Source of the DNA: an uncultured virus (IMG/VR IMGVR_UViG_3300043446_002182)
Taxonomy: Duplodnaviria > Heunggongvirae > Uroviricota > Caudoviricetes
Length of the DNA: 64,000 bases
IMG/VR virus record: IMGVR_UViG_3300043446_002182
Reading direction: 5' to 3' (one strand)
Shown: positions 7,472 to 55,850 of the stretch, piece after piece
Layout: each line of letters begins with the position of its first letter
How positions within the stretch are numbered: position 1 is the stretch's first letter
Position numbers and translations under genes: made by a program
Notes under the pieces: generated by a model
The model's database searches: none
What the model was told of the DNA's origin: nothing
The model's input: the letters and a program-made list of their open reading frames with translations, nothing else

Positions 7472-8410
7472 ATGCTCGTACAGTCGCAAATTGTATCTCT
7501 GCTCAATGAGATATTGAACCAAACAGCACGACTCCGTAAAAACGGTGCTCAGGCTGTTTATTTTTGCCCCTGCTGTCATCACTACAAGCGGAAACTTGAA
7601 GTCAACCTTGAAACGGGACAGTGGCATTGCTGGACGTGCGACATCAAAGGTTCTTACCTCGGGTCTTTTCTCACAAAAGTCAAAGCGTCAGATTCTTACC
7701 GACAAAAGATGGCGCAGCTTACGGGTGATTTGCGACTCGCCCAACGACGAAAAGTAACTCGTGCCCCCAACGAAGTTGTTTTACCCGAGGAATTTTTACC
7801 TCTCAGCAAACCAGTGGCATCCATCGAATATAAGAATGCCGTGGCCTATCTCAAACGACGTGGAATTCTGCGAGAGGACATACTTAGATATAACATCGGT
7901 TATTGTGAGGAAGGCGACTACGCTTTTCACATTGTCGTTCCATCTTACGATGCGGAGGGCAATTTGAACTTCTTCATCGGTCGTCGGTATTACGACGTTG
8001 AAGGTATGATTCCGCACAAGAAGCCCGAAGTGTCAATGGACATTGTGGGGTTTGAGTCGTTTGTCAACTACAACGAACCGTTGAGTTTATGTGAGGGATT
8101 TTTCGATGCGATGGCGATTCGCAACAATGCCATCCCGCTGTTTGGAAAATACCCATCGAAAAAGTTGCGACAGAAAATGATTTTGCACGGAACACGGCGA
8201 GTCAATATGGTGTTGGACGACGATGCTGTTAAAGATGCAGTGCGGAACTACGAAATGTTGGTCAAAGATGTCCCCAACCTTGAAGTTCATGTTGTCAGTC
8301 TCAGTGGTAAAGACCCATCTGCATTGGGATTTATCAAAACCCACGAAATCATTCGTGCGTCCCGTCCGTTTGACGAGAGTGATTTGCTGGCCTACGAATT
8401 AAGTCTATGA
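7472..8410 (+). CDS. DNA primase (Zn finger + TOPRIM)
   Basis: CPCC...HCWTC zinc finger; YLKRRGI; CEGFFDA and LDDDA TOPRIM motifs; KDP. Confidence 0.85.
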   Translation: MLVQSQIVSLLNEILNQTARLRKNGAQAVYFCPCCHHYKRKLEVNLETGQWHCWTCDIKGSYLGSFLTKVKASDSYRQKMAQLTGDLRLAQRRKVTRAPNEVVLPEEFLPLSKPVASIEYKNAVAYLKRRGILREDILRYNIGYCEEGDYAFHIVVPSYDAEGNLNFFIGRRYYDVEGMIPHKKPEVSMDIVGFESFVNYNEPLSLCEGFFDAMAIRNNAIPLFGKYPSKKLRQKMILHGTRRVNMVLDDDAVKDAVRNYEMLVKDVPNLEVHVVSLSGKDPSALGFIKTHEIIRASRPFDESDLLAYELSL

Positions 8411-11400
8411 TTAACCTTTGCAATCCAAGTATCAAGAAGTTCACCCACATTTTCCATGTGGCCGACATTCACATTCGCCTGAACAAACGGCACGAAGAAT
8501 ATCGCAATGTGTTTGCTTCATTGTATGAGGAAGTGAAGAAGACTCCCGAGACCACGGTGGTTGCCGTGCTGGGTGATGTATTTCATAGCAAGTCCGATTT
8601 GAGTCCCGAGTGTGTTCAGATGGCATCGGATTTGTTCAAGAATTTGGCCGACCTTCGCCCTGTAGTGCTGATTGCTGGGAATCACGACGCCACCTTGTCT
8701 AACAAAAATCGCTTGGACAGTTTGACGCCAATCGTGGACACCCTTCGGCATCCGAACCTTTTCTATTTCCGAAACAATGGCCTCTATGGGTTTGGTAACA
8801 TTCTCTTCAACAACATGGGCGTGTTTGACCCGCCCGAGGCTTACATTCGTGGAAACACCATCCCTGACATTTACAAGAACCAGCATGACCACATTGTAGC
8901 ATTGTTCCACGGTGCGGTTGACCGTGCGTCTATGGATACGGGCTATTCCATCAGTAATCCCGCTATCATGGTCCCATTGTTTGATGACCACCATATTGCA
9001 TTGCTTGGTGATATTCACAAACGGCAGGACATGCAAGAATACAACCCCGAAGAAAACAAGCCATGTGTTCATTACGTTGGCAGCATGATTCAACAGAACC
9101 ACGGGGAAGCTTTACATGGTCATGGGTATTCTCTATGGGATTTGAGCACCCGGACATATGAGTTTCATGAACTTCCAAACGAAGTTGGTTACTTTACCAT
9201 TGATATTGATAAGGGTCAGGTCACGACCGATTTGACAAATCTGCCCAAGAAAGTGCATCTGCGTCTTCGTTGCTATGAGACCATAGCTGCCGAAGTCAAG
9301 GCTATTTTAGCCAAACTGAAAGAGAAGGCACAGATAATCGAGATTGCATATGTCCGCATGGACCAAGACGCTGAAAAGAAGGATGTCATTCCACTTTGTA
9401 AGGACGTGGTTCTAACTGACCTCACGAATGTTGAGTATCAGAACAAACTCATTCAGGAGTTCTTGGAAAAGAAACTCAACATTGACAACCCCACTAAGAT
9501 TGAATCCATTTTGAATCTCAACCGTGAGACCAATAAAAGTATCAAGAAGGATGATTTCATCCGAAATCTTAAATGGAAGCCGATTCGATTTGAGTGGGAC
9601 AACATGTTCACCTATGGTGAAGGCAACGTCATTGACTTCACACAGATGGATGGAGTCTATGGTATTTTCGGGCCTAACCGTGCAGGTAAGTCAAGTATCC
9701 TGTCGTCATTGATTTTCTGTCTCTTTGACAAGTTTGACCGTGGCTCGAAGGGCTTGCACGTTTTGAATGTGCAGAAGACTTCATTTCGCTGCAAACTTGA
9801 GTTTGAAATCGCAGGTATTCGTTACTTCATTGAACGTAAGGGAGCAATCACTCGCACGGGCAACGTCAAGGTTGACGTAAAATTCTGGAAGACCGTCAAT
9901 GGTGTAGATGAAGAGTTGCATGGCACGGCTCGCCGTGACACGAACGAAGTGATTCGTGACTACGTTGGCTCATATGACGATTTCATTTTGACCGCAGCAT
10001 CTTTTCAAAGTGCCAAGAACAACATGTCATTCATTGACATGGGCAACAGCGAGCGCAAAGACCTTTTGGTGCAATTCATCGGCCTGAATGTGTTTGACCG
10101 CTTGCAGGAAGCAGCCAATGAAAGAAACAAGGAGTTGAATACCATGTTGAAACTGCATAAGGATAAGAACTATCCCTATGAGAAACAACAGAACGAAAAT
10201 GCCTTGGCTCACGCTGACACTTTACTGGCACAACTGACAAGTGCGGTTGATAGTCTTAAAAAACAGATTTCCGACGTGAACGAACAAATTGTCACGGAGA
10301 CGGTCAACCTTATCAAATTGGACGTGGAAGTTCCGACAAACATCACACAGTTGATGGAACGCAAGAAGTCTCAAGAAGAGGCAGTCACGTCAAAGAAGAA
10401 TGCATTGGAAGGTTTCCGCAAACTAACCAATGCCAAAGAAGTGGCACTCTCAGACTTCAACGCCAAGATTGAACAGATTGAGTCCTCAAACTTGGTGGAA
10501 AGTCACAAGACCCATCGCCAGTTGAGCGACAAGATTACCGAAGTCAAACAGAAGATTGACTTGAAAAAGGTAGAAATCAAAGGCAAGCTTGAGAAGGTTG
10601 CTCGGTTGGATAAGCATGAATATGACCCGAACTGCAAATACTGCACAAACAACTCGTTTGTCAAGGACGCAACCAAGGCTAAGAAAGAACTCAACGAGGA
10701 CAAGAAGGACACCGACAAGATGTTGGAAACGCTTGACAACCTCAACGTGGAGTTTGCCAAGTTCAAGTGGGTTGAGCAAGCTTATGAGACCTACACCAAG
10801 CTTCTGACTGACCGCAGCAAAATCAAAGATGAAGTTGCCGTTCTGTCTCGGAACATCATTGTAGCGACCAATGAACTTGAGAAATTGGAAGCGACGTTGA
10901 AGAACACCCTCCATCAAATTGACTTGTATCATCGGAACGACGTGGCTGTGGATAACAATGCCAAGGTTCAATCCAAGATTATGTCGTATCGTAATACGTT
11001 GACGAAACTCGACATTGAGTTGCAGCGTCAGACCCGAGCCATGATGGACATTTCTGGAAAGCGAGAGCTATTCAAGACGAACATCCTCAAACTGTCGGAG
11101 ACTATCGAAGAAGTAACGGCACTGGAATACGAATTGGATTCACATCAACTCTATCTCCAATCGGTAGGTCGTGACGGTATCCCGTATCAAGTCATTTGCA
11201 ACACTGTTCCTGAAATTGAGAAGGAAGTCAACTCCATCTTGTCACAAGTTGTAGATTACACGATTCAGTTCGAGACCGATGGTAAAAACGTTGTGCCGTA
11301 TGTTGTCTATGACTTTGGCCGCTGGCCAATCGAATTGACCTCTGGTTTTGAACGGTTTGTTGCCTCGGTTGCCATCAGGGTCGCCCTAACCAACGTCTCC

Positions 11401-11613
11401 AATTTGCCCAAGACGACGTTCTTGGCCTTGGATGAAGGTTTTGGCGCACTCGACCCCGAGCATTTGGCGACGATGTACACCCTATTCTCGTTCCTCAAGA
11501 GCAATTTTGACTTCGTTCTGGTGGTTTCCCACTTGGATTCGCTCAAAGATGCTGTGGATAAGCAGATTGAGTTAAAGAAAGAAGGCAACTTCTCCAAGGT
11601 GATTTTTGAGTGA
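8407..11613 (+). CDS. Fused SbcD/Mre11 nuclease - SbcC/Rad50 ATPase (gp47-gp46-like)
   Basis: DIH, GD, GNHD, HG, GDIH phosphoesterase motifs; GPNRAGKS Walker A; coiled coil with CKYC hook; SGFE signature, LDEGFGALD, VSH. Confidence 0.9.
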   Translation: MINLCNPSIKKFTHIFHVADIHIRLNKRHEEYRNVFASLYEEVKKTPETTVVAVLGDVFHSKSDLSPECVQMASDLFKNLADLRPVVLIAGNHDATLSNKNRLDSLTPIVDTLRHPNLFYFRNNGLYGFGNILFNNMGVFDPPEAYIRGNTIPDIYKNQHDHIVALFHGAVDRASMDTGYSISNPAIMVPLFDDHHIALLGDIHKRQDMQEYNPEENKPCVHYVGSMIQQNHGEALHGHGYSLWDLSTRTYEFHELPNEVGYFTIDIDKGQVTTDLTNLPKKVHLRLRCYETIAAEVKAILAKLKEKAQIIEIAYVRMDQDAEKKDVIPLCKDVVLTDLTNVEYQNKLIQEFLEKKLNIDNPTKIESILNLNRETNKSIKKDDFIRNLKWKPIRFEWDNMFTYGEGNVIDFTQMDGVYGIFGPNRAGKSSILSSLIFCLFDKFDRGSKGLHVLNVQKTSFRCKLEFEIAGIRYFIERKGAITRTGNVKVDVKFWKTVNGVDEELHGTARRDTNEVIRDYVGSYDDFILTAASFQSAKNNMSFIDMGNSERKDLLVQFIGLNVFDRLQEAANERNKELNTMLKLHKDKNYPYEKQQNENALAHADTLLAQLTSAVDSLKKQISDVNEQIVTETVNLIKLDVEVPTNITQLMERKKSQEEAVTSKKNALEGFRKLTNAKEVALSDFNAKIEQIESSNLVESHKTHRQLSDKITEVKQKIDLKKVEIKGKLEKVARLDKHEYDPNCKYCTNNSFVKDATKAKKELNEDKKDTDKMLETLDNLNVEFAKFKWVEQAYETYTKLLTDRSKIKDEVAVLSRNIIVATNELEKLEATLKNTLHQIDLYHRNDVAVDNNAKVQSKIMSYRNTLTKLDIELQRQTRAMMDISGKRELFKTNILKLSETIEEVTALEYELDSHQLYLQSVGRDGIPYQVICNTVPEIEKEVNSILSQVVDYTIQFETDGKNVVPYVVYDFGRWPIELTSGFERFVASVAIRVALTNVSNLPKTTFLALDEGFGALDPEHLATMYTLFSFLKSNFDFVLVVSHLDSLKDAVDKQIELKKEGNFSKVIFE

Positions 11614-41467: not shown

Positions 41468-41500
41468 GTACTGACGAAATGAATTTTGATATTTATATTC

Positions 41501-42385
41501 ATGAAGGTAATTGCATACACTGCATTAGTCCTCTTAAGTGTATTTGCGTTAATTTGCAACTCTTCTAAACCCATAGTGTTAGACTCTGATTGTAACCGTG
41601 ATTCTATCCAAATTGCCCTCGATTCCAATTCATCTATCCGTCTTCCCAACAAAACAATCGAAGTTGATGCCCCAATTATTCTGTCCCGCAGCAATCAGAA
41701 ACTTATCGGTGGAACAAATACCGTGTTGGTTTTGAAGAGCAACGCCAACTGTCCTGTCATCATTATTGGTCTTCAAGAAAATGTTCCCATCCAAAAAGTT
41801 TCGATAGAGAACATTCGGATTGATGGCAACCGATTGCAGCAAACAAACGAAACGTGGAAACCCTCTGGCCTCGGTCATTTGATGTATAATAACGGCATCA
41901 TCGTCCAGAACGCCCGTTCAGTTTCGATAAAGAACGTGACTGTTTACAACTGTCGGTCGGGCGGATTAGTCTCTACTTATCATGTTTCTCGTTTGACCGT
42001 TGATTCCAGCGAATTCTACAACAATCAATTTGATGGCATTGCTTGTTATCAGACTACAAAAAGCGTCTTCAAGAATTCAAAGACACATGATAACTTGGCC
42101 GCAGGAATTTCACTAGACCTAGATTTCAACAGGAACGACTTCAAGAACATGGATGTTTACAACAATGATATTGGTATCTTCATGCGAAAGTCTAATGGTA
42201 ACATGTTTGACCGAATTTACATGGCTGGTAATCGTTCTCATGACATTTTCATGTCATCCGTGGATGACTTACCAAATACGGGCTGTTCACAGAATACTTT
42301 TGTTTTAACCAAGAACCGGACTATTTATGACCGAGACATGCAGTGTGTCTCAAACACCTATTTAACAATTCCGCTTGACAGATGA
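41501..42385 (+). CDS. Right-handed beta-helix (pectate-lyase-like) protein with N-terminal signal/anchor
   Basis: MKVIAYTALVLLSVFALIC; IENIRIDGN, NGI, DGI, NDIGI repeats. Confidence 0.75.
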   Translation: MKVIAYTALVLLSVFALICNSSKPIVLDSDCNRDSIQIALDSNSSIRLPNKTIEVDAPIILSRSNQKLIGGTNTVLVLKSNANCPVIIIGLQENVPIQKVSIENIRIDGNRLQQTNETWKPSGLGHLMYNNGIIVQNARSVSIKNVTVYNCRSGGLVSTYHVSRLTVDSSEFYNNQFDGIACYQTTKSVFKNSKTHDNLAAGISLDLDFNRNDFKNMDVYNNDIGIFMRKSNGNMFDRIYMAGNRSHDIFMSSVDDLPNTGCSQNTFVLTKNRTIYDRDMQCVSNTYLTIPLDR

Positions 42386-42403
42386 TAGCGGAAATAGTAA
42401 ACT
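42375..42403 (+). promoter_or_regulatory. sigma70-type promoter of release-factor gene
   Basis: TTGACA-17 nt-TAAACT, 8 nt before ATG 42412. Confidence 0.7.
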
Positions 42404-42411
42404 CTACGAGT

Positions 42412-43048
42412 ATGATTATCGAAATCAGAGCATCAGAAGGCGGCGACGACGCCAAGTCATTGGTGTTGACGCAGGTTGACATTTACACCCGCTTAGTCAA
42501 ACGTTCGGGGTTACTTTGACCTCGAAATTGTTGACCTAAGACCGGGGTTGGCAGTTCTTCAAGTCGGTCAGGATGCCGCTCATATCTTCAAAAATGAATC
42601 GGGTGGCCATCGTTGGCAACACGCTCCCACAGGAAAAGTTCATACCAGCACCATCACGGTCGCTGTCATGGACGAACCTTCCCCAATCGAACTCCAAATC
42701 AACCCAAACGATTTGGATATAATAACTACCCGTGCGGGTGGAAATGGGGGTCAGAACCGAAACAAGGTTGAGACTTGTATTGTTATTCGTCACATACCGA
42801 CAAATACGGTTGTGCGTTGTGCATCTGAACGTTCACAATATCAAAACAAAGAAAGTGCGATGAAAGTTCTTAAAGCACGGTTATGGGATTTGAAAAAATC
42901 TCAAATGCATAAAGAACAATGTAACCAACGAAATCAACAGATTGGTTGCGGTGATAGACGAAGAACTATTCAGGCACAGAACAATGTTGTGAAAGACCGA
43001 GATGGGCGTGTTTGGAGGTATCAAGACTATTTGAAGGGGAAGTGGTAA
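42412..43048 (+). CDS. Truncated class I peptide chain release factor (RF1-like), expressed via +1 frameshift at 42514-42520
   Basis: Frame 0 MIIEIRASEGGDDAK...SGLL*; +1 frame DLEIVD...ESGGHRWQ...VHTST.TVAVM...GGNGGQNRNK....HIPT...ERSQYQNK; 211 aa joined. Confidence 0.88.
42507..42520 (+). promoter_or_regulatory. prfB-type +1 programmed frameshift cassette
   Basis: GGGG-TTA-CTT-TGA-C with CTT TGA in frame and +1 frame continuing the RF sequence. Confidence 0.85.
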
Positions 43049-43550
43049 TATGTTGATACCGAAGAATAATTTGTTTTGCCCACACGACTAAATCTTCGGG
43101 GCGTTGTCCTGATGGATGAGATTTACACCAAAGTTCAAGATTATCGGGATGATTATCTGCTCGGCGACCGTTTTTATGATGGACTTGTTCATCTTTTTCA
43201 AGCGGTCGTCCGAGTATTTTTTCCATGACCATTCGGTGCTCCAAGTATTGTTTACCATCAATCGTAAACGCCTTATATCCTTTGTCGGTGATATAACCTT
43301 GTCCTTTTTCGTTGATAAGGATTTTGGTTGCATCACCGTGGCGTTTCCATCGTCCATAATGCTTATGGCACAGTGGATGGTCGGTCTTCAAATCCTTTGC
43401 CGCCAAACCTCCGCAAATGACGCAGGATTTGTCCAACGACGTTAAGGTAACATTTGGGTCGCCATGACGCTTCCAACGCTTGTAATGCCTATCACAGTAG
43501 TTTTTACGACGTGTTTGGTTTGTGCATCCTTCGGCTAAACATTTTCTCAT
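42966..43550 (-). CDS. HNH homing endonuclease
   Basis: Two C...C..HY.RWKRHGD repeats; EHR.VME..LGR.L...E.VHHKNG.R.DN...NLELW. Confidence 0.88.
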   Translation of the reverse strand: MRKCLAEGCTNQTRRKNYCDRHYKRWKRHGDPNVTLTSLDKSCVICGGLAAKDLKTDHPLCHKHYGRWKRHGDATKILINEKGQGYITDKGYKAFTIDGKQYLEHRMVMEKILGRPLEKDEQVHHKNGRRADNHPDNLELWCKSHPSGQRPEDLVVWAKQIILRYQHITTSPSNSLDTSKHAHLGLSQHCSVPE

Positions 43551-43676
43551 GATAATAAATAGAAACAAAAAAGTAATGGTGGATTATTATATGTTATATT
43601 CTTATTTTGTCACACAATTGGAAATGGTAAATGGAAAGGCGTTTAATGTGAATAAGACGCATATTTATACTTAGCC

Positions 43677-50975: not shown

Positions 50976-51955
50976 AAATCCTCCCATGTAAATACGCTGA
51001 GTGCGTTGGAGTCACCCGTCAGATGTTTGACGATGCTCGTTGGTTCTCCGTATTCCTCTTCGTTTGCCATGTTGTAAATTCCCGGTGATTCTTCGTCGGC
51101 ATTCTCAAATGGTTTGGTTACAACATGCATGAACGATTTATCGGTTGGAGGAATGGAGAAATCAATGATGGTATAGACGTGTCCATTGAAGCTGTAATAG
51201 TCAAAATGCTCTCCGGCCTTACCATATTCAGACCCATATGAAAAACACCATAGAGAATTACATCCCAATGCTTTCATTCCGGGCTGACCAGTCACGTCGA
51301 TAATGACAATGTTTCCCTTGTCATAGACGATTTTCAAATCGTAATTATTTGCCTTGACAATTTGTCTCAAATCATACTTGGATAACTTGAACGTTCCGGC
51401 TATCAGGTTTTCCTTTTCTTCAACATAATCCAGAACATCCTCGAAGGTTGGGTGGTCGCTGCTGAAAATCTTTTTCAGAAGGATAACCTTTTGTTCATCT
51501 GACCTATTTTCCAAGTAACTCAAATGTGCATTGATATACTCTACTCGGTCAAGTAAATGCGAAAACGAAGCACGAGGTTTGCGAATATCTCCACGGAGAT
51601 TACGCAGCGAAAACTTAGGCCATTTACTGACGGCTTTGATGACCTTGGCTCGGTCACTCAGGGTTCGTTGATGAACCGATGGGATTGGCGAATCGAAGGA
51701 GAATCCTTCAATTGGGAAGAGATTCTTATTGTAATTCAGGAGTTGTGAATAAGCATCTTGCCATTGCTGCAAAGTCCATCGAACATGTGATTGCTTGTCT
51801 TCAAGCATCAATTCAACCAATGTCTTGTAGGTGTGGTCTTTCTTACCACCAGTCACCCTATCCAGCCATTCAATATCAGCAGCTTCCAGCTTGTCGCCAT
51901 AAAGTTTGGTAGCAAGTTGGACATTTTCTGATAGTAAATGACGGAGTTTAATCAT
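50972..51955 (-). CDS. Putative internal head protein (MIKLRHLLSE leader)
   Basis: 327 aa; C-terminal LG...WC......F..Y...G.VY.IID segment. Confidence 0.65.
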   Translation of the reverse strand: MIKLRHLLSENVQLATKLYGDKLEAADIEWLDRVTGGKKDHTYKTLVELMLEDKQSHVRWTLQQWQDAYSQLLNYNKNLFPIEGFSFDSPIPSVHQRTLSDRAKVIKAVSKWPKFSLRNLRGDIRKPRASFSHLLDRVEYINAHLSYLENRSDEQKVILLKKIFSSDHPTFEDVLDYVEEKENLIAGTFKLSKYDLRQIVKANNYDLKIVYDKGNIVIIDVTGQPGMKALGCNSLWCFSYGSEYGKAGEHFDYYSFNGHVYTIIDFSIPPTDKSFMHVVTKPFENADEESPGIYNMANEEEYGEPTSIVKHLTGDSNALSVFTWEDL

Positions 51956-54504
51956 TGGTTACGCATAGCCAATGCAATTTCTGTTGCTTCGGCCTTCGAG
52001 ATATTTGGGTTCTCATACCACGCATCCGTAACGGCAGACAGAATCTTGCCGATGAGCGGGCCTTTTGGAATGCCCATCATTTGCAAGTCGTTTCCGTTGA
52101 TAGGAAGCGTTGGCTTTGATACTTGAATGTCGAGGTTCTTGAGACGACGACGCACATGTTCAATCTGGTTTGGCATGGCGGATGCATCCGCATGAGCGAT
52201 GTTGTCGGCGTGAATCACGTCGAGCAAATTCTCCAAGTTATTCCCAAGTTCAATCTTGAACTTGCGAAGCGACTTGTCGGACAACTTGACCGCATCATCC
52301 CCACCATGCTTCAAACGCATGTGGTTAGCCACACCCGCCTTGACAGCGTTGATGATGTCCGTAGGATACTTCAAATCACGAAGCACACGGTCAACAATGT
52401 CAGCACCAGCCTGTTCATGTCCATAGAAATGCACACCCGTTGGTGTTTCGGAACGAGTTGCAACCTTGCCAATGTCATGGAACAACGCCATCAGGCGTTG
52501 CACCAACTCAGGCTTCGTGTTTGTGAGCACTTCAAGCGTGTGGTCGAATACATCGTGTGTATGGTGAACATTTTGAGCCATACCGATGGCTTGTTGCAAT
52601 TCGGCAGCAATGTGTGGCAACAGCCCAACGTCTTTCAGCAAACGAATGCCTCGGACGGGGTTCTTGGACAAAAGAATCTTGTTCAACTCGTCACGGACAC
52701 GTTCTTTTGACGTGTTACCGAGACGGTGAAGGTTGTTCTTGATGCCTTCAATGACTTCGGGAGCAATCTGGAAATTGAATTGCGTTGCGAAGCGAACTGC
52801 ACGGAACATGCGGAGGGCGTCGTCCGTGTAAATCACGTTGGGGTCAATGGGCGTGCGAACCAGCCCAGCCTTCAAATCGGCCATTCCCTTTCCCGTAGGG
52901 TCGAGAATCTTACCAGATGACACATCTTTATACAAAGCATTGAATGTCAAGTCACGACGACTTGCATCCACTTCAATGTAAGGCGTGTATTGAACGACTG
53001 GCTTGCGGCTGTTTGGGTCGTGGTATTGCTCTTTACGGAACATGACTGCATCCACATTTTGAGCGGAGAAATCAATACCGTTCCAAACCACACCTTCCAA
53101 ACGAAGATTGGCTGTGCCGAACGTCGGGTAAATGACGGGGTTGGTCTTTTCCTTAAAGATGCCAAGCTTCTTGCCGAGCCATTCGGTGAATTCGACGCCG
53201 CCTTGGAACTTTCCAACAACAATGTCAGCATCCTTGGGTGGTTTGCCCAAGAGTTCGTCACGGACAAAGCCGCCTACGAGGAAGACTTTACCTTCCCATT
53301 CAGTGCCTTTGATTTGTTCCCGAAGAAATGCTTCGAGGTCTTTTGGTGTTGCGGCTTTTGATTCCATAATCTGTAACTTATTTTCGTCCACTCCATACCC
53401 GCCCTTTGTCGGATACATGTTAGACTTTGGCTCTGGCTTTTCTTTTGTCCAATCCAAATTCTTGTGATGTTTGACTTCATATCCCATTCTTTCGAGATAG
53501 TTAGTCACATCTACTCTTGACTCGTCATCGGGTGGAAAATTCCACCAGAACACAGCTTTGACATCGGCGTTGTAAACCCAGCGATTCCAACCCATGTCTG
53601 GCGAATGACCACCGACATTTTTCTTTGCTACAATCCTACCAGTGCTCCAAATGCCACCATAAACGATGTCAGATTTTTCTGGTTTTTCTTGCTTTGGATT
53701 GAAAGAGAAAATCTCAGTCAATGGCTTGCGAACAAAATCACCCCGAGAGTTTACATGTCTCAAGACAGGGTATCCTTTCTTTTTCAAGAAATCTTCGACG
53801 GCAACATAGTTGTCCGTGTCAGTTGATGGCACCCACCAACTTACCGATTGCGAATATGGCCAGTATGAGAATCGGTTGTGACTGTTACCAAATCCGAACT
53901 CATCATGCATCCGCTCTCCGTCTTGAGGAAGTGGAAGATGAACTTTCCCATACGCATCCACCATTCCTACCCATCTTTCTGTCGGGCTAAACCCTTCATT
54001 TAATCCAACTCGGCGCAATTGCGATTGCCAAGACAAATCCGTGCCCTTGGCAGGCTCATCCAATTTAGCGAGCCATATTCTACTCCATTCCTTCGATTTG
54101 TCAACGTCAAACCCTGTATAGTCATCCTTGACCCACAACCACTTATGATGCCAGATGCTATCTGAGTGTCCTTCTCGGGGCGGGGCTGTCCCATCTAATG
54201 ATACGACCACGTAATCTCCGACATGTGGTTCGGATGCGGTATCGAAATCGGGAGCTTCATCAAAGCGAACGATTTTCCGCTTTGCATCAACCATGATGGT
54301 GTTGTAGTTAAACTCGGGCTTGGCACGAGTCATTATGGCTTCGGCCTTTTGCAAAATCGCTGCGGGAATGACTTCATCGGCATACAATTTATGCACGTAA
54401 ACACTGCTGCCGACTTGTTTGCCGACATTTCCCCGATAACGACGAATAGCCGAACCTTGTTTGGTTCGGAGCGTCGTCTCATAGAATTGCGTGTATTGCG
54501 TCAT
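51952..54504 (-). CDS. Multidomain protein ending in CCA-adding enzyme/poly(A) polymerase with HD domain
   Basis: VGGFVRDELLG..PKDAD, RRDLTFNA, DDALRMFRAVRF, HT..V, LFHDIGK; about 380 aa of extra N-terminal domains; start 54504 by ATGA overlap. Confidence 0.88.
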   Translation of the reverse strand: MTQYTQFYETTLRTKQGSAIRRYRGNVGKQVGSSVYVHKLYADEVIPAAILQKAEAIMTRAKPEFNYNTIMVDAKRKIVRFDEAPDFDTASEPHVGDYVVVSLDGTAPPREGHSDSIWHHKWLWVKDDYTGFDVDKSKEWSRIWLAKLDEPAKGTDLSWQSQLRRVGLNEGFSPTERWVGMVDAYGKVHLPLPQDGERMHDEFGFGNSHNRFSYWPYSQSVSWWVPSTDTDNYVAVEDFLKKKGYPVLRHVNSRGDFVRKPLTEIFSFNPKQEKPEKSDIVYGGIWSTGRIVAKKNVGGHSPDMGWNRWVYNADVKAVFWWNFPPDDESRVDVTNYLERMGYEVKHHKNLDWTKEKPEPKSNMYPTKGGYGVDENKLQIMESKAATPKDLEAFLREQIKGTEWEGKVFLVGGFVRDELLGKPPKDADIVVGKFQGGVEFTEWLGKKLGIFKEKTNPVIYPTFGTANLRLEGVVWNGIDFSAQNVDAVMFRKEQYHDPNSRKPVVQYTPYIEVDASRRDLTFNALYKDVSSGKILDPTGKGMADLKAGLVRTPIDPNVIYTDDALRMFRAVRFATQFNFQIAPEVIEGIKNNLHRLGNTSKERVRDELNKILLSKNPVRGIRLLKDVGLLPHIAAELQQAIGMAQNVHHTHDVFDHTLEVLTNTKPELVQRLMALFHDIGKVATRSETPTGVHFYGHEQAGADIVDRVLRDLKYPTDIINAVKAGVANHMRLKHGGDDAVKLSDKSLRKFKIELGNNLENLLDVIHADNIAHADASAMPNQIEHVRRRLKNLDIQVSKPTLPINGNDLQMMGIPKGPLIGKILSAVTDAWYENPNISKAEATEIALAMRNQ

Positions 54505-55850
54505 ACGTCTTGTGGATGTCTCACATTGATGATTGGAACATTGAACTCCTTGGAGAACCGTTCCAACACATGCTTCACCCACGCCATTCCTGACATGGTG
54601 TAACTACCGGGGTTCAACCGACCCTTCTTTTCTTTCATGAACTCAAAAAACTTCCGTAACAATTCCTTGGAATATCCCTTATCACGAAACTCTGGCTTGG
54701 TTTGAATCATCAACAAATGGAAAACGTTAGATGTCTTGTCATGACCAAATGCGAGATAGCCATATGGCGTAACCCATTTGTAACCATGCGTGCTAATATC
54801 AATCAGCCCTTGAGGTTGAACCTCGTAGGACTCTTTTAGAGATTTCAAATACCTATTGGCAAAGACTTTATTGCGTCCAAGCTCAACCCGATTACCATTA
54901 ACTTTGACCGTGCGTTTATATTCTTTTCCGGCTTCTTCCCAATTTTTGTTCAAGACTGCTCGCACAAATTTCGGAAATCCAGTTAGAGTCCCCAAATTAA
55001 ACGCATAGTCTGTGAGTATTTCTTCTTGGGTATCGTCTAACACAATTTGTACACCAAACATCTTCTTTATGTCGTCGTGGGCCTTTTTCTTTGCCAATTG
55101 CAAATCCAACACCAACAACTTTTCAATTGTTCGGTCGTCCACACCTTTTATGAATTTTTTCAACTCGGACTTGCTCTTAATCTTGTGTCCGTATCCTATA
55201 GTTGGCATACCGCCTTCGGGTGATTTGTGCGGATACCATTTTCCTTTCTTAAACCCAGACTTTCCCGAGTTTTCCACGGACTTGATGTAGTTGACAAAAT
55301 CCTGAGAAAAAGAATTCGTCGAGTGATGTATGGCAGGTGGAGTATCCATTTCTGAAAGGGTGTTTTTTGCTTTTTTGGACTTTATCAAGTCTATCACCCT
55401 TTTTATCTTATGTCCATCATTTTTAATGAGTTCTTCCATTCCGAAATGCAATGGCTCTGGCCATTGACCATATTCAACCCATACCGAACCTTCGTTTTCC
55501 CAATTGAGTTGTGGGGCGAATTCAAACGGAACGATAACCAAATAGTTATGATAGGAAAACTCTCCGTCTCGGTAAACGTAAAGTGGGTGGATTTTATAGC
55601 GACCAGTGAATCCTGTTTCTTCTTCAACTTCACGTTCGACGGCATCCTTGGGAGTTTCCCCAGCATCTACCTTGCCGCCCCATGTTCCCCATGTTTCTGG
55701 TTCGTAGTCAACTTGGTTGCTTCGATGCGCCAGAAGAATGCGTCCAGTATCACGAGCAATAAAAATACAACCAGCCGCTTCACTTCCCCAATACTCTCGG
55801 GTTCCTTGGTCTGCATCTAAGAAATCGTCTTGGTTTGGTTCAAATGGCAT
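54501..55850 (-). CDS. NUDIX hydrolase - phage lysozyme - GNAT-like fusion
   Basis: GGKVDAGETPKDAVEREVEEETG; E...PTIGYGH...FNLG..FPKF; IQTKPEFRDKGYSKELL. Confidence 0.82.
   Translation of the reverse strand: MPFEPNQDDFLDADQGTREYWGSEAAGCIFIARDTGRILLAHRSNQVDYEPETWGTWGGKVDAGETPKDAVEREVEEETGFTGRYKIHPLYVYRDGEFSYHNYLVIVPFEFAPQLNWENEGSVWVEYGQWPEPLHFGMEELIKNDGHKIKRVIDLIKSKKAKNTLSEMDTPPAIHHSTNSFSQDFVNYIKSVENSGKSGFKKGKWYPHKSPEGGMPTIGYGHKIKSKSELKKFIKGVDDRTIEKLLVLDLQLAKKKAHDDIKKMFGVQIVLDDTQEEILTDYAFNLGTLTGFPKFVRAVLNKNWEEAGKEYKRTVKVNGNRVELGRNKVFANRYLKSLKESYEVQPQGLIDISTHGYKWVTPYGYLAFGHDKTSNVFHLLMIQTKPEFRDKGYSKELLRKFFEFMKEKKGRLNPGSYTMSGMAWVKHVLERFSKEFNVPIINVRHPQDV

What the first reader, a model, noticed from the sequence alone, without database searches (positions are those of the whole stretch)
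42375..43048. Phage release factor gated by a relocated prfB-type +1 frameshift (possible sensor of host RF2 activity)
Seen: ATG 42412 opens 35 codons (MIIEIRASEGGDDAK..., like RF1 EIRAGTGGDEA) ending TCG GGG TTA CTT TGA C; the +1 frame from 42518 continues into the GGQ-bearing ORF (211 aa joined). A TTGACA-17-TAAACT promoter sits 8 nt upstream. Established: bacterial prfB autoregulates through an SD-like G run, 3-nt spacer and CTT TGA C (E. coli AGGGGG TAT CTT TGA C), located early in domain 1. Here the geometry is the same, but the protein lacks domain 1, looks RF1-like, and the cassette lies inside domain 2. Inference: the phage makes this factor mainly when UGA termination is inefficient, as a feedback-controlled termination or rescue backup. 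I cannot confirm this is unpublished.
Basis: partly seen in the sequence, partly recalled or inferred. Interest (0 to 1): 0.92.

Follow-up and report, generated by a model that had tools for sequence, protein, structure and literature searches.

The report
Frameshift-gated mini release factor of phages
This T4-like phage carries a shortened copy of the bacterial protein that ends translation, and the gene can only be read in full if the ribosome slips one base at an internal stop codon; the same built-in slip site recurs in dozens of distant phages and a few bacteria, so it looks like a switch that makes the factor when normal termination is failing.

Summary
Window 42412-43048 encodes a 211-aa RF1-like release factor without domain 1. 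It is split by TCG GGG TTA CTT TGA C (42505-42520), and the +1 frame carries the rest, including GGQ.

The same split occurs at the same codon in 89 distinct viral and metagenome loci and in 7 bacterial-genome loci, one in the Archangium gephyra chromosome. Consensus: CGG AGG GGT CTT stop C. CTT is present in 88 of 89, and the synonymous codons are strongly biased towards the SD-like GGAGG.

The stop is TGA (60), TAG (25) or TAA (4), so the gate is not RF2-specific. In several lineages the frameshift is replaced by one or two in-frame stops in the same short stretch, and in a few it is lost.

Contigs from three other samples cross the site without an indel. Seven literature searches found no report. 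A 2016 review states that recoding of RF1 genes is unknown.

Best reading: a programmed +1 frameshift of the prfB type, evolved independently in an RF1-derived mini-factor, couples its synthesis to poor termination. No assay was run, and whether the product reads stop codons is untested.

This scan earlier noted a similar gate in an archaeal virus aRF1 (e1-6059954), not this family.

The parts
42375..42403 (+). Sigma-70-like pattern TTGACA-17-TAAACT, 8 nt before the ATG; if used, the mRNA would have almost no leader
   Evidence: 10 of 12 matches. Such patterns are not enriched in the region, so this is unproven.
42412..42519 (+). ORF1, zero frame: 35 codons plus TGA. It encodes the start of RF domain 2, including the EGGDDA motif (42436-42453) that corresponds to the helix-alpha5 tip of RF1.
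   Evidence: The family HMM matches positions 2-36 in this frame (47.4 bits).
42507..42510 (+). SD-like G run (GGGG), 3 nt (TTA, 42511-42513) before the slippery codon
   Evidence: The family consensus is GGAGG at -11 to -7 with a 3-nt spacer. Codon bias shows selection at the nucleotide level.
42514..42520 (+). Shift site CTT TGA C: P-site Leu codon CTT (42514-42516), gate stop TGA (42517-42519), C at +4. After the slip the next codon read is GAC (42518-42520).
   Evidence: CTT in 88 of 89, a stop in 89 of 89, and C after the stop in 68 of 89 distinct relatives.
42518..43048 (+). ORF2, +1 frame: residues 36-211, covering the rest of domain 2, the GGQ domain 3 and domain 4; ends at TAA 43046-43048
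   Evidence: HMM positions 35-221 score 264.7 bits. 12 of 15 differences in related contigs fall on the third codon position of this frame.
42608..42649 (+). Codon-recognition loop HRWQHAPTGKVHTS: 4 residues shorter than in most of the family and in RF1, with no PxT motif
42746..42754 (+). GGQ catalytic motif (GGG GGT CAG)
   Evidence: invariant in alignments A1 and A2

Best explanation
The gene encodes a domain-1-less, RF1-derived class-I release factor (domains 2, 3 and 4 with an intact GGQ). It is made only by a programmed +1 ribosomal frameshift.

Proposed mechanism:
- A ribosome translating ORF1 pauses with Leu-tRNA on CUU in the P site and the gate stop (UGA here) in the A site.
- The upstream G-rich SD-like stretch pairs with 16S rRNA three bases away.
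- If a release factor does not act quickly, the tRNA slips from CUU to UUU, GAC is read next, and the full 211-aa factor is produced.
- If termination is efficient, only a 35-residue peptide results.

Synthesis is therefore inversely coupled to termination capacity at the gate codon. In this phage that codon is UGA, which is read by host RF2 and ends about half of the phage's own genes.

What is shown: the gene structure, the family-wide conservation of the cassette, nucleotide-level selection, and replacement of the cassette by in-frame stops.

What is inferred: actual slipping, dependence on release-factor level, and the role of the product as a backup termination or rescue factor.

My odds: real programmed frameshift about 0.9; expression coupled to termination efficiency about 0.7; product acts as a termination or rescue backup about 0.5.
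For: 1. One gene in two frames. Pfam PCRF plus RF-1, and the NCBIfam prfA model, align without a break across the junction. The PDB best match is T. maritima RF1, residues 2-191 against 89-288, E 1e-39. The AlphaFold model has pLDDT 93.5, and its best Foldseek match is ribosome-bound RF1 with TMq 0.92. The gate lies in the loop between helix 12-31 and strand 37-43.

2. Conservation. Of 181 sources examined (180 loci plus the window), 97 are split +1 at HMM position about 36, which is 89 distinct sequences. Among the 89: CTT in 88; stop TGA 60, TAG 25, TAA 4; C at +4 in 68; an SD-like 5-mer within 12 nt in 61 and a 4-mer in 12. A 42%-identical homologue in LR745208.1 has CGG AGG GGT CTT TGA C at the same codon.

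3. Selection on the bases, not only on the residues. Codon -3 is AGG in 52 of 89, against 10% of 2237 Arg codons elsewhere in the same genes. Codon -4 is CGG in 59 of 89, against 16.5%. Codon -2 is GGT in 38 of 89, against 22% of Gly codons. Codon -1 is CTT in 88 of 89, against 15.6% of Leu codons.

4. The gate persists in other forms. At the same codon, L023, L031 and L041 have an in-frame TGA and L040 an in-frame TAG. L006, L095 and L159 have one TGA within a few codons. L005/L086, L100, L088/L089 and L093/L094 have two in-frame stops 7-12 codons apart. The capsid genes of the genomes of L023, L031 and L005, and the portal gene of the last, have no internal stops.

5. Not an assembly error. 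Contigs of three other samples, one from an RNA library, cross the site with no indel.

6. Bacterial copies in Archangium gephyra and three other genomes of its phylum keep the cassette.

7. The mechanism of the prfB cassette is as described in PMC12421855 (passage seen).
Against: - No experiment or ribosome-level data were examined. The frameshift product, its amount and its dependence on RF level are all inferred.
- Most members have an RF1-type loop (RVPPTEKRGRVHTS), yet two thirds are gated by TGA, which RF1 does not read. A simple prfB-like self-feedback therefore does not fit most of the family, and it is unclear why lack of RF2 should call for an RF1-like factor.
- The window's own protein lacks the PxT motif through a 4-residue deletion, so its codon specificity is unknown.
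- 16 of 89 sites have no SD-like 4-mer, and the window's own stimulator is only GGGG.
- About a third of the short relatives in the protein database are continuous: 38 of 120, against 77 that start at or after the gate. The gate is therefore dispensable.
- No conserved neighbour hints at a pathway; the most frequent neighbour occurs in 7 of 89 loci.
- The loci are the best 80 of 514 and the best 80 of 553 relatives, so the proportions are biased towards the query.
Confidence: 0.7

Rival explanations
1. True prfB-like autoregulation: the mini-factor itself recognises the gate stop (any of the three, because it is omnipotent or has relaxed specificity) and shuts off its own synthesis. The gate would then set the factor's own level and would not report host RF activity.
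For: - It is the known logic of the same cassette in prfB.
- TAG- and TAA-gated members (29 of 89) carry a PxT-type loop that could read their own gate.
Against: 60 of 89 gates are TGA while the loop is of the RF1 type. Omnipotence is unknown for bacterial-type factors with PxT, and nothing here tests it.
Confidence: 0.25
2. A fixed-ratio attenuator with no sensing: the cassette merely keeps the level of a potentially toxic factor low, or makes two products (a 35-residue peptide and the full factor) in a set ratio.
For: - Continuous relatives exist (6 short loci; 38 of 120 proteins), so the factor can be tolerated without a gate.
- There is no conserved downstream RNA structure or other regulatory element.
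Against: A weak ribosome-binding site would suffice to keep the level low. Instead, the gate is kept over deep divergence and is replaced by in-frame stops, not by anything else. That points to the stop codon itself being the selected feature.
Confidence: 0.15
3. ORF2 is translated on its own from an internal start (for example TTG 42548), and ORF1 is a separate small gene or a remnant, so no frameshift is needed.
For: Gene callers report ORF2-only proteins of about 166-195 aa. A TTG lies at 42548.
Against: - ORF1 is conserved as protein in its own frame in all 97 split loci (17-53 bits).
- It aligns contiguously with RF1.
- It supplies strand 2-7 and helix 12-31 of the fold, with E4, G10 and G11 invariant.
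- CTT plus a stop would not be conserved under this reading.
Confidence: 0.05
4. A pseudogene, a sequencing or assembly error, or a +1 correction made at the RNA level by transcriptional slippage.
For: A single-base frame break is the commonest artefact. No RNA reads were inspected at single-read level.
Against: - 89 distinct loci share the break.
- Independent contigs, including one from an RNA library, carry the same letters without an indel.
- Substitutions fall on third codon positions of the +1 frame.
- A run of three T is too short for efficient slippage (my own knowledge).
Confidence: 0.03

Closest known systems
Bacterial prfB (RF2) autoregulatory +1 programmed frameshift, CUU UGA C with upstream SD-like sequence (mechanism passage in PMC12421855 seen; consensus YTT_TRA_C in PMC3711429, passage seen)
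   Same: The slippery CUU followed by a stop, C at +4, an SD-like stretch 3 nt upstream, no downstream structure, and a gene that encodes a class-I release factor.
   Different: - The gene is RF1-derived and lacks domain 1.
- The site sits in domain 2 (about prfA model position 141 to 150), not about codon 26 in domain 1, so it is not homologous.
- The stop may be UAG (25 of 89), which the prfB consensus does not include.
- The factor's loop type does not match the commonest gate codon.
- Carriers are mostly phages.
Mimivirus/Megavirus class-I release factor gene with one frameshift and one readthrough (Jeudy et al. 2012, PMC3521657; abstract read)
   Same: A virus-encoded termination factor whose synthesis needs recoding at internal stops. 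Both frameshift and readthrough types of gate occur.
   Different: That factor is of the eukaryotic/archaeal eRF1 type in viruses of amoebae, and both events occur in one gene. Here the factor is bacterial RF1-type in phages, and the gate types alternate between lineages.
PrfH (RF-H), the domain-1-less release-factor homologue paired with RtcB2 (PMC1586002 and 10.1101/2025.01.09.632186, listings and abstract starts only)
   Same: A short class-I RF paralogue without domain 1 and with GGQ; a rescue factor, not a general terminator.
   Different: - Sequence: the TIGR03072 model scores 58 bits against a cut-off of 166.65, and only over the GGQ domain.
- Fold: TMq 0.68 against 0.92 for RF1.
- No RtcB gene among the neighbours whose families were scanned.
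- No frameshift is reported for prfH in the texts seen.
Full-length RF1/RF2 genes of huge and stop-codon-recoded phages (Al-Shayeb 2020, PMC7162821, passages; Borges preprint 10.1101/2021.08.26.457843, passages)
   Same: Phage-encoded class-I release factors thought to adjust termination during infection.
   Different: Those are full-length and tied to code change. The word 'frameshift' does not occur in either text. This phage's genes read well in the standard code (59 ORFs, 91% coding).
ArfB / ICT1 type GGQ rescue factors
   Same: A GGQ domain acting without domain 1.
   Different: ArfB lacks the codon-reading domains 2 and 4 and uses a C-terminal tail. The model NF006718 scores 32 bits against a cut-off of 100.

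Membership tests
prfB-type +1 programmed frameshift cassette | Slippery CUU immediately followed by an in-frame stop (CUU UGA), with the continuation in the +1 frame | tested here: met
   Window 42514-42519; 88 of 89 distinct relatives have CTT plus a stop
prfB-type +1 programmed frameshift cassette | SD-like purine or G-rich stretch 3 nt upstream of CUU | tested here: met
   The window has GGGG 42507-42510 plus the spacer TTA (a weak version). The family consensus is GGAGG at -11 to -7; 61 of 89 have a 5-mer, 12 a 4-mer and 16 none. Codon bias is shown.
prfB-type +1 programmed frameshift cassette | C after the stop (weak termination context) | tested here: met
   Window C at 42520; 68 of 89
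prfB-type +1 programmed frameshift cassette | Located early in the RF2 gene (domain 1, about codon 26), and the gene is prfB (TIGR00020 above its cut-off) | tested here: not met
   TIGR00020 scores 118 bits against a cut-off of 370, and prfA scores higher (163 bits). The site maps into domain 2 of a gene that has no domain 1.
prfB-type +1 programmed frameshift cassette | Frameshift efficiency rises when the cognate release factor is scarce | not testable with these tools
   Needs a reporter or an in vitro translation assay
RF1 (prfA, TIGR00019 / NF001859) | Full-length match above the curated cut-off, with domain 1 present | tested here: not met
   163 bits against a cut-off of 423. The match covers model positions 115-313 of 361 only, and upstream lies a beta-helix protein gene.
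RF1 (prfA, TIGR00019 / NF001859) | PxT codon-recognition tripeptide in the domain 2 loop | tested here: not met
   The window has HRWQHAP----TGKVHTS, with a 4-residue deletion. Most of the family keeps PPT or PPN. That the motif defines RF1 specificity is recalled knowledge.
RF1 (prfA, TIGR00019 / NF001859) | GGQ motif and the RF-1 (PF00472) domain | tested here: met
   PF00472 at 97.9 bits; GGQ is invariant
PrfH (TIGR03072) | Model score above the cut-off and an adjacent rtcB gene | tested here: not met
   58 bits against a cut-off of 166.65. No RtcB family among 20 window ORFs, 13 recurrent neighbours or 20 Archangium neighbours.
ArfB (NF006718) | Model score above the cut-off | tested here: not met
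   32 bits against a cut-off of 100

The most novel reading that the evidence does not exclude
A large, undescribed family of RF1-derived mini release factors in T4-like and huge phages, and sporadically in myxobacteria, is hard-wired to be made only when termination fails. It uses any of three interchangeable recoding gates at one spot: CUU-stop +1 frameshift, one in-frame stop, or two in-frame stops. Because the gate codon is freely UGA, UAG or UAA while the reading loop stays the same, the factor may be omnipotent or codon-independent. It would then be a phage-carried emergency terminator or rescue factor that keeps translation going when host RF1 or RF2 are exhausted, degraded or attacked. 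It would also be the first natural recoding switch in an RF1-type gene.
Probability: 0.35. Interest if true: 0.92.

Novelty: new variant of a known kind. Interest (0 to 1): 0.85.

Why it matters
The prfB frameshift is the textbook case of a gene that measures its own product through recoding, and it has stood alone in bacteria. [quoted passage not shown]

Here an RF1-derived family shows exactly that. It has evolved independently at a different place in the protein, uses all three stop codons, and swaps between frameshift and in-frame-stop gates.

This gives a natural comparative series for asking what a CUU-stop cassette senses. It raises the question of what a release factor without domain 1 does for a phage. 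It also exposes a systematic annotation error: gene callers report only the second ORF (77 of the 120 nearest database proteins). One carrier, Archangium gephyra, is cultivable, so the biology is testable.

Tried and rejected
- **Conserved partner gene.** An all-against-all comparison of 611 flanking ORFs from the 89 loci gave no neighbour in more than 7 loci. The recurrent ones are Gp23 capsid, HNH or GIY-YIG nucleases, methylases and NADAR.
- **Link between gate stop and recognition loop.** None: PxT occurs with TGA in 28 and with TAG in 12, and loop deletions occur with TGA, TAG and in-frame stops.
- **Link between gate stop and stop usage of neighbouring genes.** None (chi-square p = 0.89 on 325 ORFs).
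- **Link between gate stop and G+C.** None.
- **Downstream RNA structure.** Mean z of -0.02 for 60 nt after the stop, against -0.29 for control stretches.
- **Coding-density test for alternative codes.** On 3.6 to 6.6-kb loci the test was too noisy to use, so it was replaced by a check for internal stops in capsid and portal genes. The records of L040 and L041 had no Gp23 or portal match, so their code is unknown.
- **The window's own assembly.** It is not held. The nearest record, G001, is 98% identical in this gene and adds nothing independent.
- **DNA search of the phage collection.** With 3 kb around the gene it found only an HNH match.
- **Earlier notes of this scan.** A search by sequence returned nothing.
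- **Other CTT-stop sites in the window.** The other 7 with open frames on both sides lack the G run and lie inside long ORFs of another frame. I did not pursue them.
- **Runs with small word shares.** I draw no habitat conclusion from them.
- **Complex prediction.** Not used, because no binding claim is made.
Full report
**1. What is in the window**

- ATG 42412 opens 35 codons (MIIEIRASEGGDDAKSLVLTQVDIYTRLVKRSGLL) that end at TGA 42517-42519.
- The local sequence is TCG GGG TTA CTT TGA C (42505-42520).
- The +1 frame is closed upstream until 7 codons before the site, and then runs open to TAA 43046-43048.
- Read with a single four-base step at CTTT, the two frames give a 211-residue protein, P0001.

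P0001 matches the following families:
- Pfam PCRF (residues 2-83, the last half of the model) and RF-1 (residues 92-195).
- The NCBIfam prfA model, in one unbroken stretch: residues 2-190 against model positions 115-313 of 361, 163 bits. prfB scores 118 bits, PrfH 58 and ArfB 32. All are below their curated cut-offs.

The alignment runs straight across the junction, so the two frames are two halves of one gene.

There is no room for domain 1. Upstream lies a right-handed beta-helix protein gene (41486-42385), and before that the Gp23-type major capsid gene.

The window is part of a T4-like phage. It has Gp23, a T4-type portal, a T4-type terminase, a fused Mre11/Rad50-like protein and a CCA-adding enzyme. 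No tRNA gene was found in the 64 kb.

**2. Structure**

- By sequence, the closest solved structure is Thermotoga maritima RF1, with residues 2-191 against 89-288 and E 1e-39. RF2 and PrfH follow.
- An AlphaFold model built on a 40-sequence alignment has mean pLDDT 93.5.
- Foldseek places the model on ribosome-bound RF1 (9mtq_1w, TMq 0.92, rmsd 1.8). PrfH reaches only TMq 0.68.
- The shift site falls in the loop between helix 12-31 and strand 37-43, inside domain 2.
- GGQ is intact (42746-42754).
- The codon-recognition loop is HRWQHAPTGKVHTS. It is four residues shorter than in RF1 and in most relatives, and it lacks the PxT tripeptide.

**3. The break is programmed, not accidental**

First homologues:
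- A tblastn search of the phage collection found a 42%-identical homologue in the 485-kb uncultured phage LR745208.1. Its match began exactly at residue 33.
- Its DNA shows ATG...CGG AGG GGT CTT TGA C at the same codon, with the rest of the gene in the +1 frame.

I then collected DNA for relatives, with an alignment as query:
- From IMG/VR, the best 80 of 514 relatives. An earlier single-protein scan gave 17 more.
- From JGI metagenomes, the best 80 of 553 relatives.

A profile of 17 continuous family members was searched against the three forward frames of all 180 loci and the window. The result:
- 97 sources are split +1 at profile position about 36.
- 52 are continuous.
- 15 have an in-frame stop.
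- 17 are partial matches, mostly GGQ-domain-only proteins.

After removing identical proteins there are 89 distinct +1 genes, 12 with in-frame stops and 47 continuous. Of the 47 continuous:
- Only 6 are short, domain-1-less forms.
- One is cut by a contig end.
- The rest are frames of 292-403 residues whose match starts 46-156 residues in, that is, ordinary RF1-like genes.

In the 89 distinct +1 genes:
- The P-site codon is CTT in 88 and TTT in 1.
- The next codon is always a stop.
- The base after the stop is C in 68.
- Positions -11 to -7 read GGAGG in 64-76 of 89 each, followed by a 3-base spacer.

**4. Selection acts on the nucleotides**

Codon usage at the cassette, compared with the rest of the same genes:

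| Codon position | Codon | At the site | Elsewhere in the same genes |
|---|---|---|---|
| -3 | AGG | 52 of 89 | 10% of 2237 Arg codons |
| -4 | CGG | 59 of 89 | 16.5% of Arg codons |
| -2 | GGT | 38 of 89 | 22% of Gly codons |
| -1 | CTT | 88 of 89 | 15.6% of Leu codons |

The RNA sequence CGG AGG GGU CUU is therefore selected, not merely the peptide R-R-G-L.

This is the anatomy of the prfB cassette as described in PMC12421855 (passage seen) and PMC3711429 (passage seen).

No downstream structure is detectable. The mean z is -0.02 for 60 nt after the stop, against -0.29 for control stretches. As far as I recall, prfB needs none either.

**5. Independent DNA and RNA-library contigs**

Contigs of four public runs were laid on 42200-43200.
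- One run may be the source of the window and is not independent.
- Three others hold contigs at 95% identity or more that cross the site: X3 at 42450-42734, X4 at 42408-42521 and 42497-42727, and X16 (a metatranscriptome library) at 42453-42603.
- No inserted or deleted letter is reported anywhere.
- Of the 15 listed substitutions, all downstream of the site, 12 fall on the third codon position of the +1 frame.
- Contigs cannot show rare variants or prove transcription. They do exclude an assembly error, and they show purifying selection in the +1 frame.

**6. The gate is not tied to UGA**

- The stop is TGA in 60, TAG in 25 and TAA in 4 of the 89.
- It does not follow the recognition loop. 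The RF1-like loop RVPP[TN]E[KR]RGRVHTS occurs with all three stops, and shortened loops occur with TGA, TAG and in-frame stops.
- It does not follow G+C.
- It does not follow the stop usage of neighbouring genes (p = 0.89).
- On a FastTree phylogeny, the clade that holds all 89 has 100 tips (local support 0.68). A parsimony count gives 29 label changes, of which 7 are changes of gate class.
- In the window's own phage, 29 of 59 ORFs end in TGA, 27 in TAA and 3 in TAG. For this phage the gate codon is one on which half its genes depend.

**7. Other forms of the gate**

- In L023, L031 and L041 (TGA) and L040 (TAG), the codon after G-L is an in-frame stop and the gene continues in the same frame.
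- In L006, L095 and L159 a single in-frame TGA lies within a few codons.
- In a deeper clade (L005/L086, L100, L088/L089, L093/L094) two in-frame stops lie 7-12 codons apart in the same stretch.
- The W codon of the conserved HRWQ is an ordinary TGG in these genes.
- The Gp23 capsid genes of the genomes of L023, L031 and L005, and the portal gene of the last, have no internal stop. A genome-wide code change is therefore unlikely for these three. The records of L040 and L041 gave no capsid or portal match, so their code is open.
- The in-frame-stop forms L040/L041, L023/L031 and L095/L159 are nested among frameshifted relatives (supports 0.80-0.85).
- Four of the short continuous forms (L060, L076/L081 and L108) are also nested (supports 0.87-0.98). 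L047 is nested as well, but with weak support (0.27).
- The six continuous short genes carry no trace of the cassette.
- In the protein database, of the 120 nearest proteins 77 begin at or after the gate, as expected when a gene caller sees only ORF2. Another 38 are short and continuous, and 5 are other.
- Several continuous proteins read RRGFSI or RRGYSL at this spot. That is what a one-base deletion in a TAG-type cassette would give. This is an inference, because I hold no DNA for them.

**8. Not only phages**

- A scan of one genome per prokaryote species (best 80 of 586 relatives) gave 80 loci. Five of them are +1-split with the cassette: L181, L182, L184, L187 and L255. L214 and L243 showed an in-frame TGA, L229 only a partial match, and one frame (L260) was short and continuous. 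The remaining 71 loci were not listed individually; they gave a continuous match that begins 60 or more residues into the frame.
- L184 is the complete chromosome of Archangium gephyra SDU49, by its record title.
- Its neighbours are glycosyltransferases, DUF1569, an MFS transporter, a phytase and a 5'-nucleotidase, not phage genes.
- The same genome also has ordinary RF1- and RF2-sized genes.
- Among 301 genomes of that phylum, 4 hold the short type at 60% identity or more, one of them in two copies. Of the four loci I examined, all carry CGG AGG G.. CTT TAG or TGA.

**9. How it most likely works**

Shown: a conserved CUU-stop site with an SD-like stimulator 3 nt upstream, under nucleotide-level selection, that joins two conserved halves of an RF1-type protein. 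Lineages have repeatedly exchanged it for in-frame stops.

Inferred: ribosomes pause at the gate stop. When a release factor is slow to act, Leu-tRNA re-pairs from CUU to UUU and the full factor is made. Output therefore rises when termination capacity falls.

In-frame stops can substitute for the frameshift, and the stop identity is free. This suggests that the selected property is competition with termination itself, not RF2 specifically.

What the product does is open.
- It keeps the GGQ domain and, in most members, all RF1 reading elements. It lacks domain 1, which in full-length factors contacts the stalk region and RF3 (recalled knowledge).
- A backup terminator or rescue factor is the simplest reading.
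- The puzzle is that an RF1-type reader is most often gated by UGA. Either the gate reports host RF2, or the factor reads more than RF1 does.
- The window's own version has lost PxT altogether.

**10. Comparison with what is known, and novelty**

The closest system is prfB. The cassette is the same in kind, but it is not homologous in position, it sits in a different paralogue, and it uses UAG as well.

The closest viral precedent is the Mimivirus/Megavirus eRF1-type gene with one frameshift and one readthrough (PMC3521657, abstract read).

PrfH and ArfB are functional analogues without domain 1, but membership fails on score, fold and context.

Seven full-text searches found no report of a frameshifted or stop-interrupted release-factor gene in phages, or of this short family.
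- Al-Shayeb 2020 (passages) and the Borges preprint (passages) list phage RF1 and RF2 without the word 'frameshift'.
- Burroughs and Aravind 2019 has no occurrence of 'phage' or 'frameshift'.
- The PRFect paper states that all CUU-stop cases in RECODE are prfB (passage).
- Supplements were not read, and subscription journals are outside the library, so prior description cannot be excluded.

This scan earlier noted a CTT-TGA-C gate in an archaeal virus aRF1 (e1-6059954), which I did not test, and several unrelated phage genes with the same heptamer. It had not noted this family.

**11. Verdict**

It is a new variant of a known kind of switch, found as a large family, with a clear experimental path.

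Noticed in passing
window 42966-43568 (-): An HNH endonuclease ORF (PF13392) on the opposite strand. Its longest form overlaps the last 83 nt of the release-factor gene. HNH and GIY-YIG genes also recur next to relatives (L097, L038, L022).
   Followed up: partly
L005/L086, L100, L088/L089, L093/L094 (about locus positions 1600-1650 or 2600-2650): A deeper clade of the same family has two in-frame stops (TGA+TGA or TGA+TAG) 7-12 codons apart, the second at a conserved spot ([SA][LI]-stop-L[TS]G). The capsid and portal genes of one such genome have no internal stops.
   Followed up: partly
L184 / L261 about 10017-10671 (Archangium gephyra SDU49 chromosome); also G264 with two copies about 4.8 kb apart: Chromosomal, apparently non-prophage copies of the frameshift-gated mini-factor in a cultivable myxobacterium that also has ordinary RF1 and RF2. 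One related genome carries two copies close together.
   Followed up: partly
window 42404-42412, and the loose ends of runs X3 and X4: The gene has no SD before its ATG, and a -10-like hexamer ends 8 nt upstream. In two related contigs the upstream DNA is unrelated, yet it again shows a TATAAT-like or TATACT-like box just before the ATG. This hints at a leaderless or near-leaderless mRNA.
   Followed up: no
window 51952-54582 (-): An 876-aa protein whose C-terminal half is a CCA-adding enzyme (PolyA_pol head, RNA-binding, HD domains). About 430 N-terminal residues have no Pfam match. It is possibly a tRNA-repair fusion.
   Followed up: no
window 54501-55850 (-): One ORF that combines a NUDIX domain with a phage lysozyme domain.
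   Followed up: no
window 8407-11613 (+): A single 1068-aa ORF that joins a calcineurin-like phosphoesterase (Mre11-like) to AAA_23/SMC_N (Rad50-like). These are separate genes, 47 and 46, in T4 as I recall.
   Followed up: no
window, whole: Only 12 of 59 long ORFs have an SD-like 4-mer 4-20 nt before the start, in a crude count. The heptamer CTTTGAC occurs 14 times on the + strand and 9 times on the - strand, against roughly 4 expected per strand from base composition. Apart from 42514, none has the G run together with coding on both sides.
   Followed up: partly
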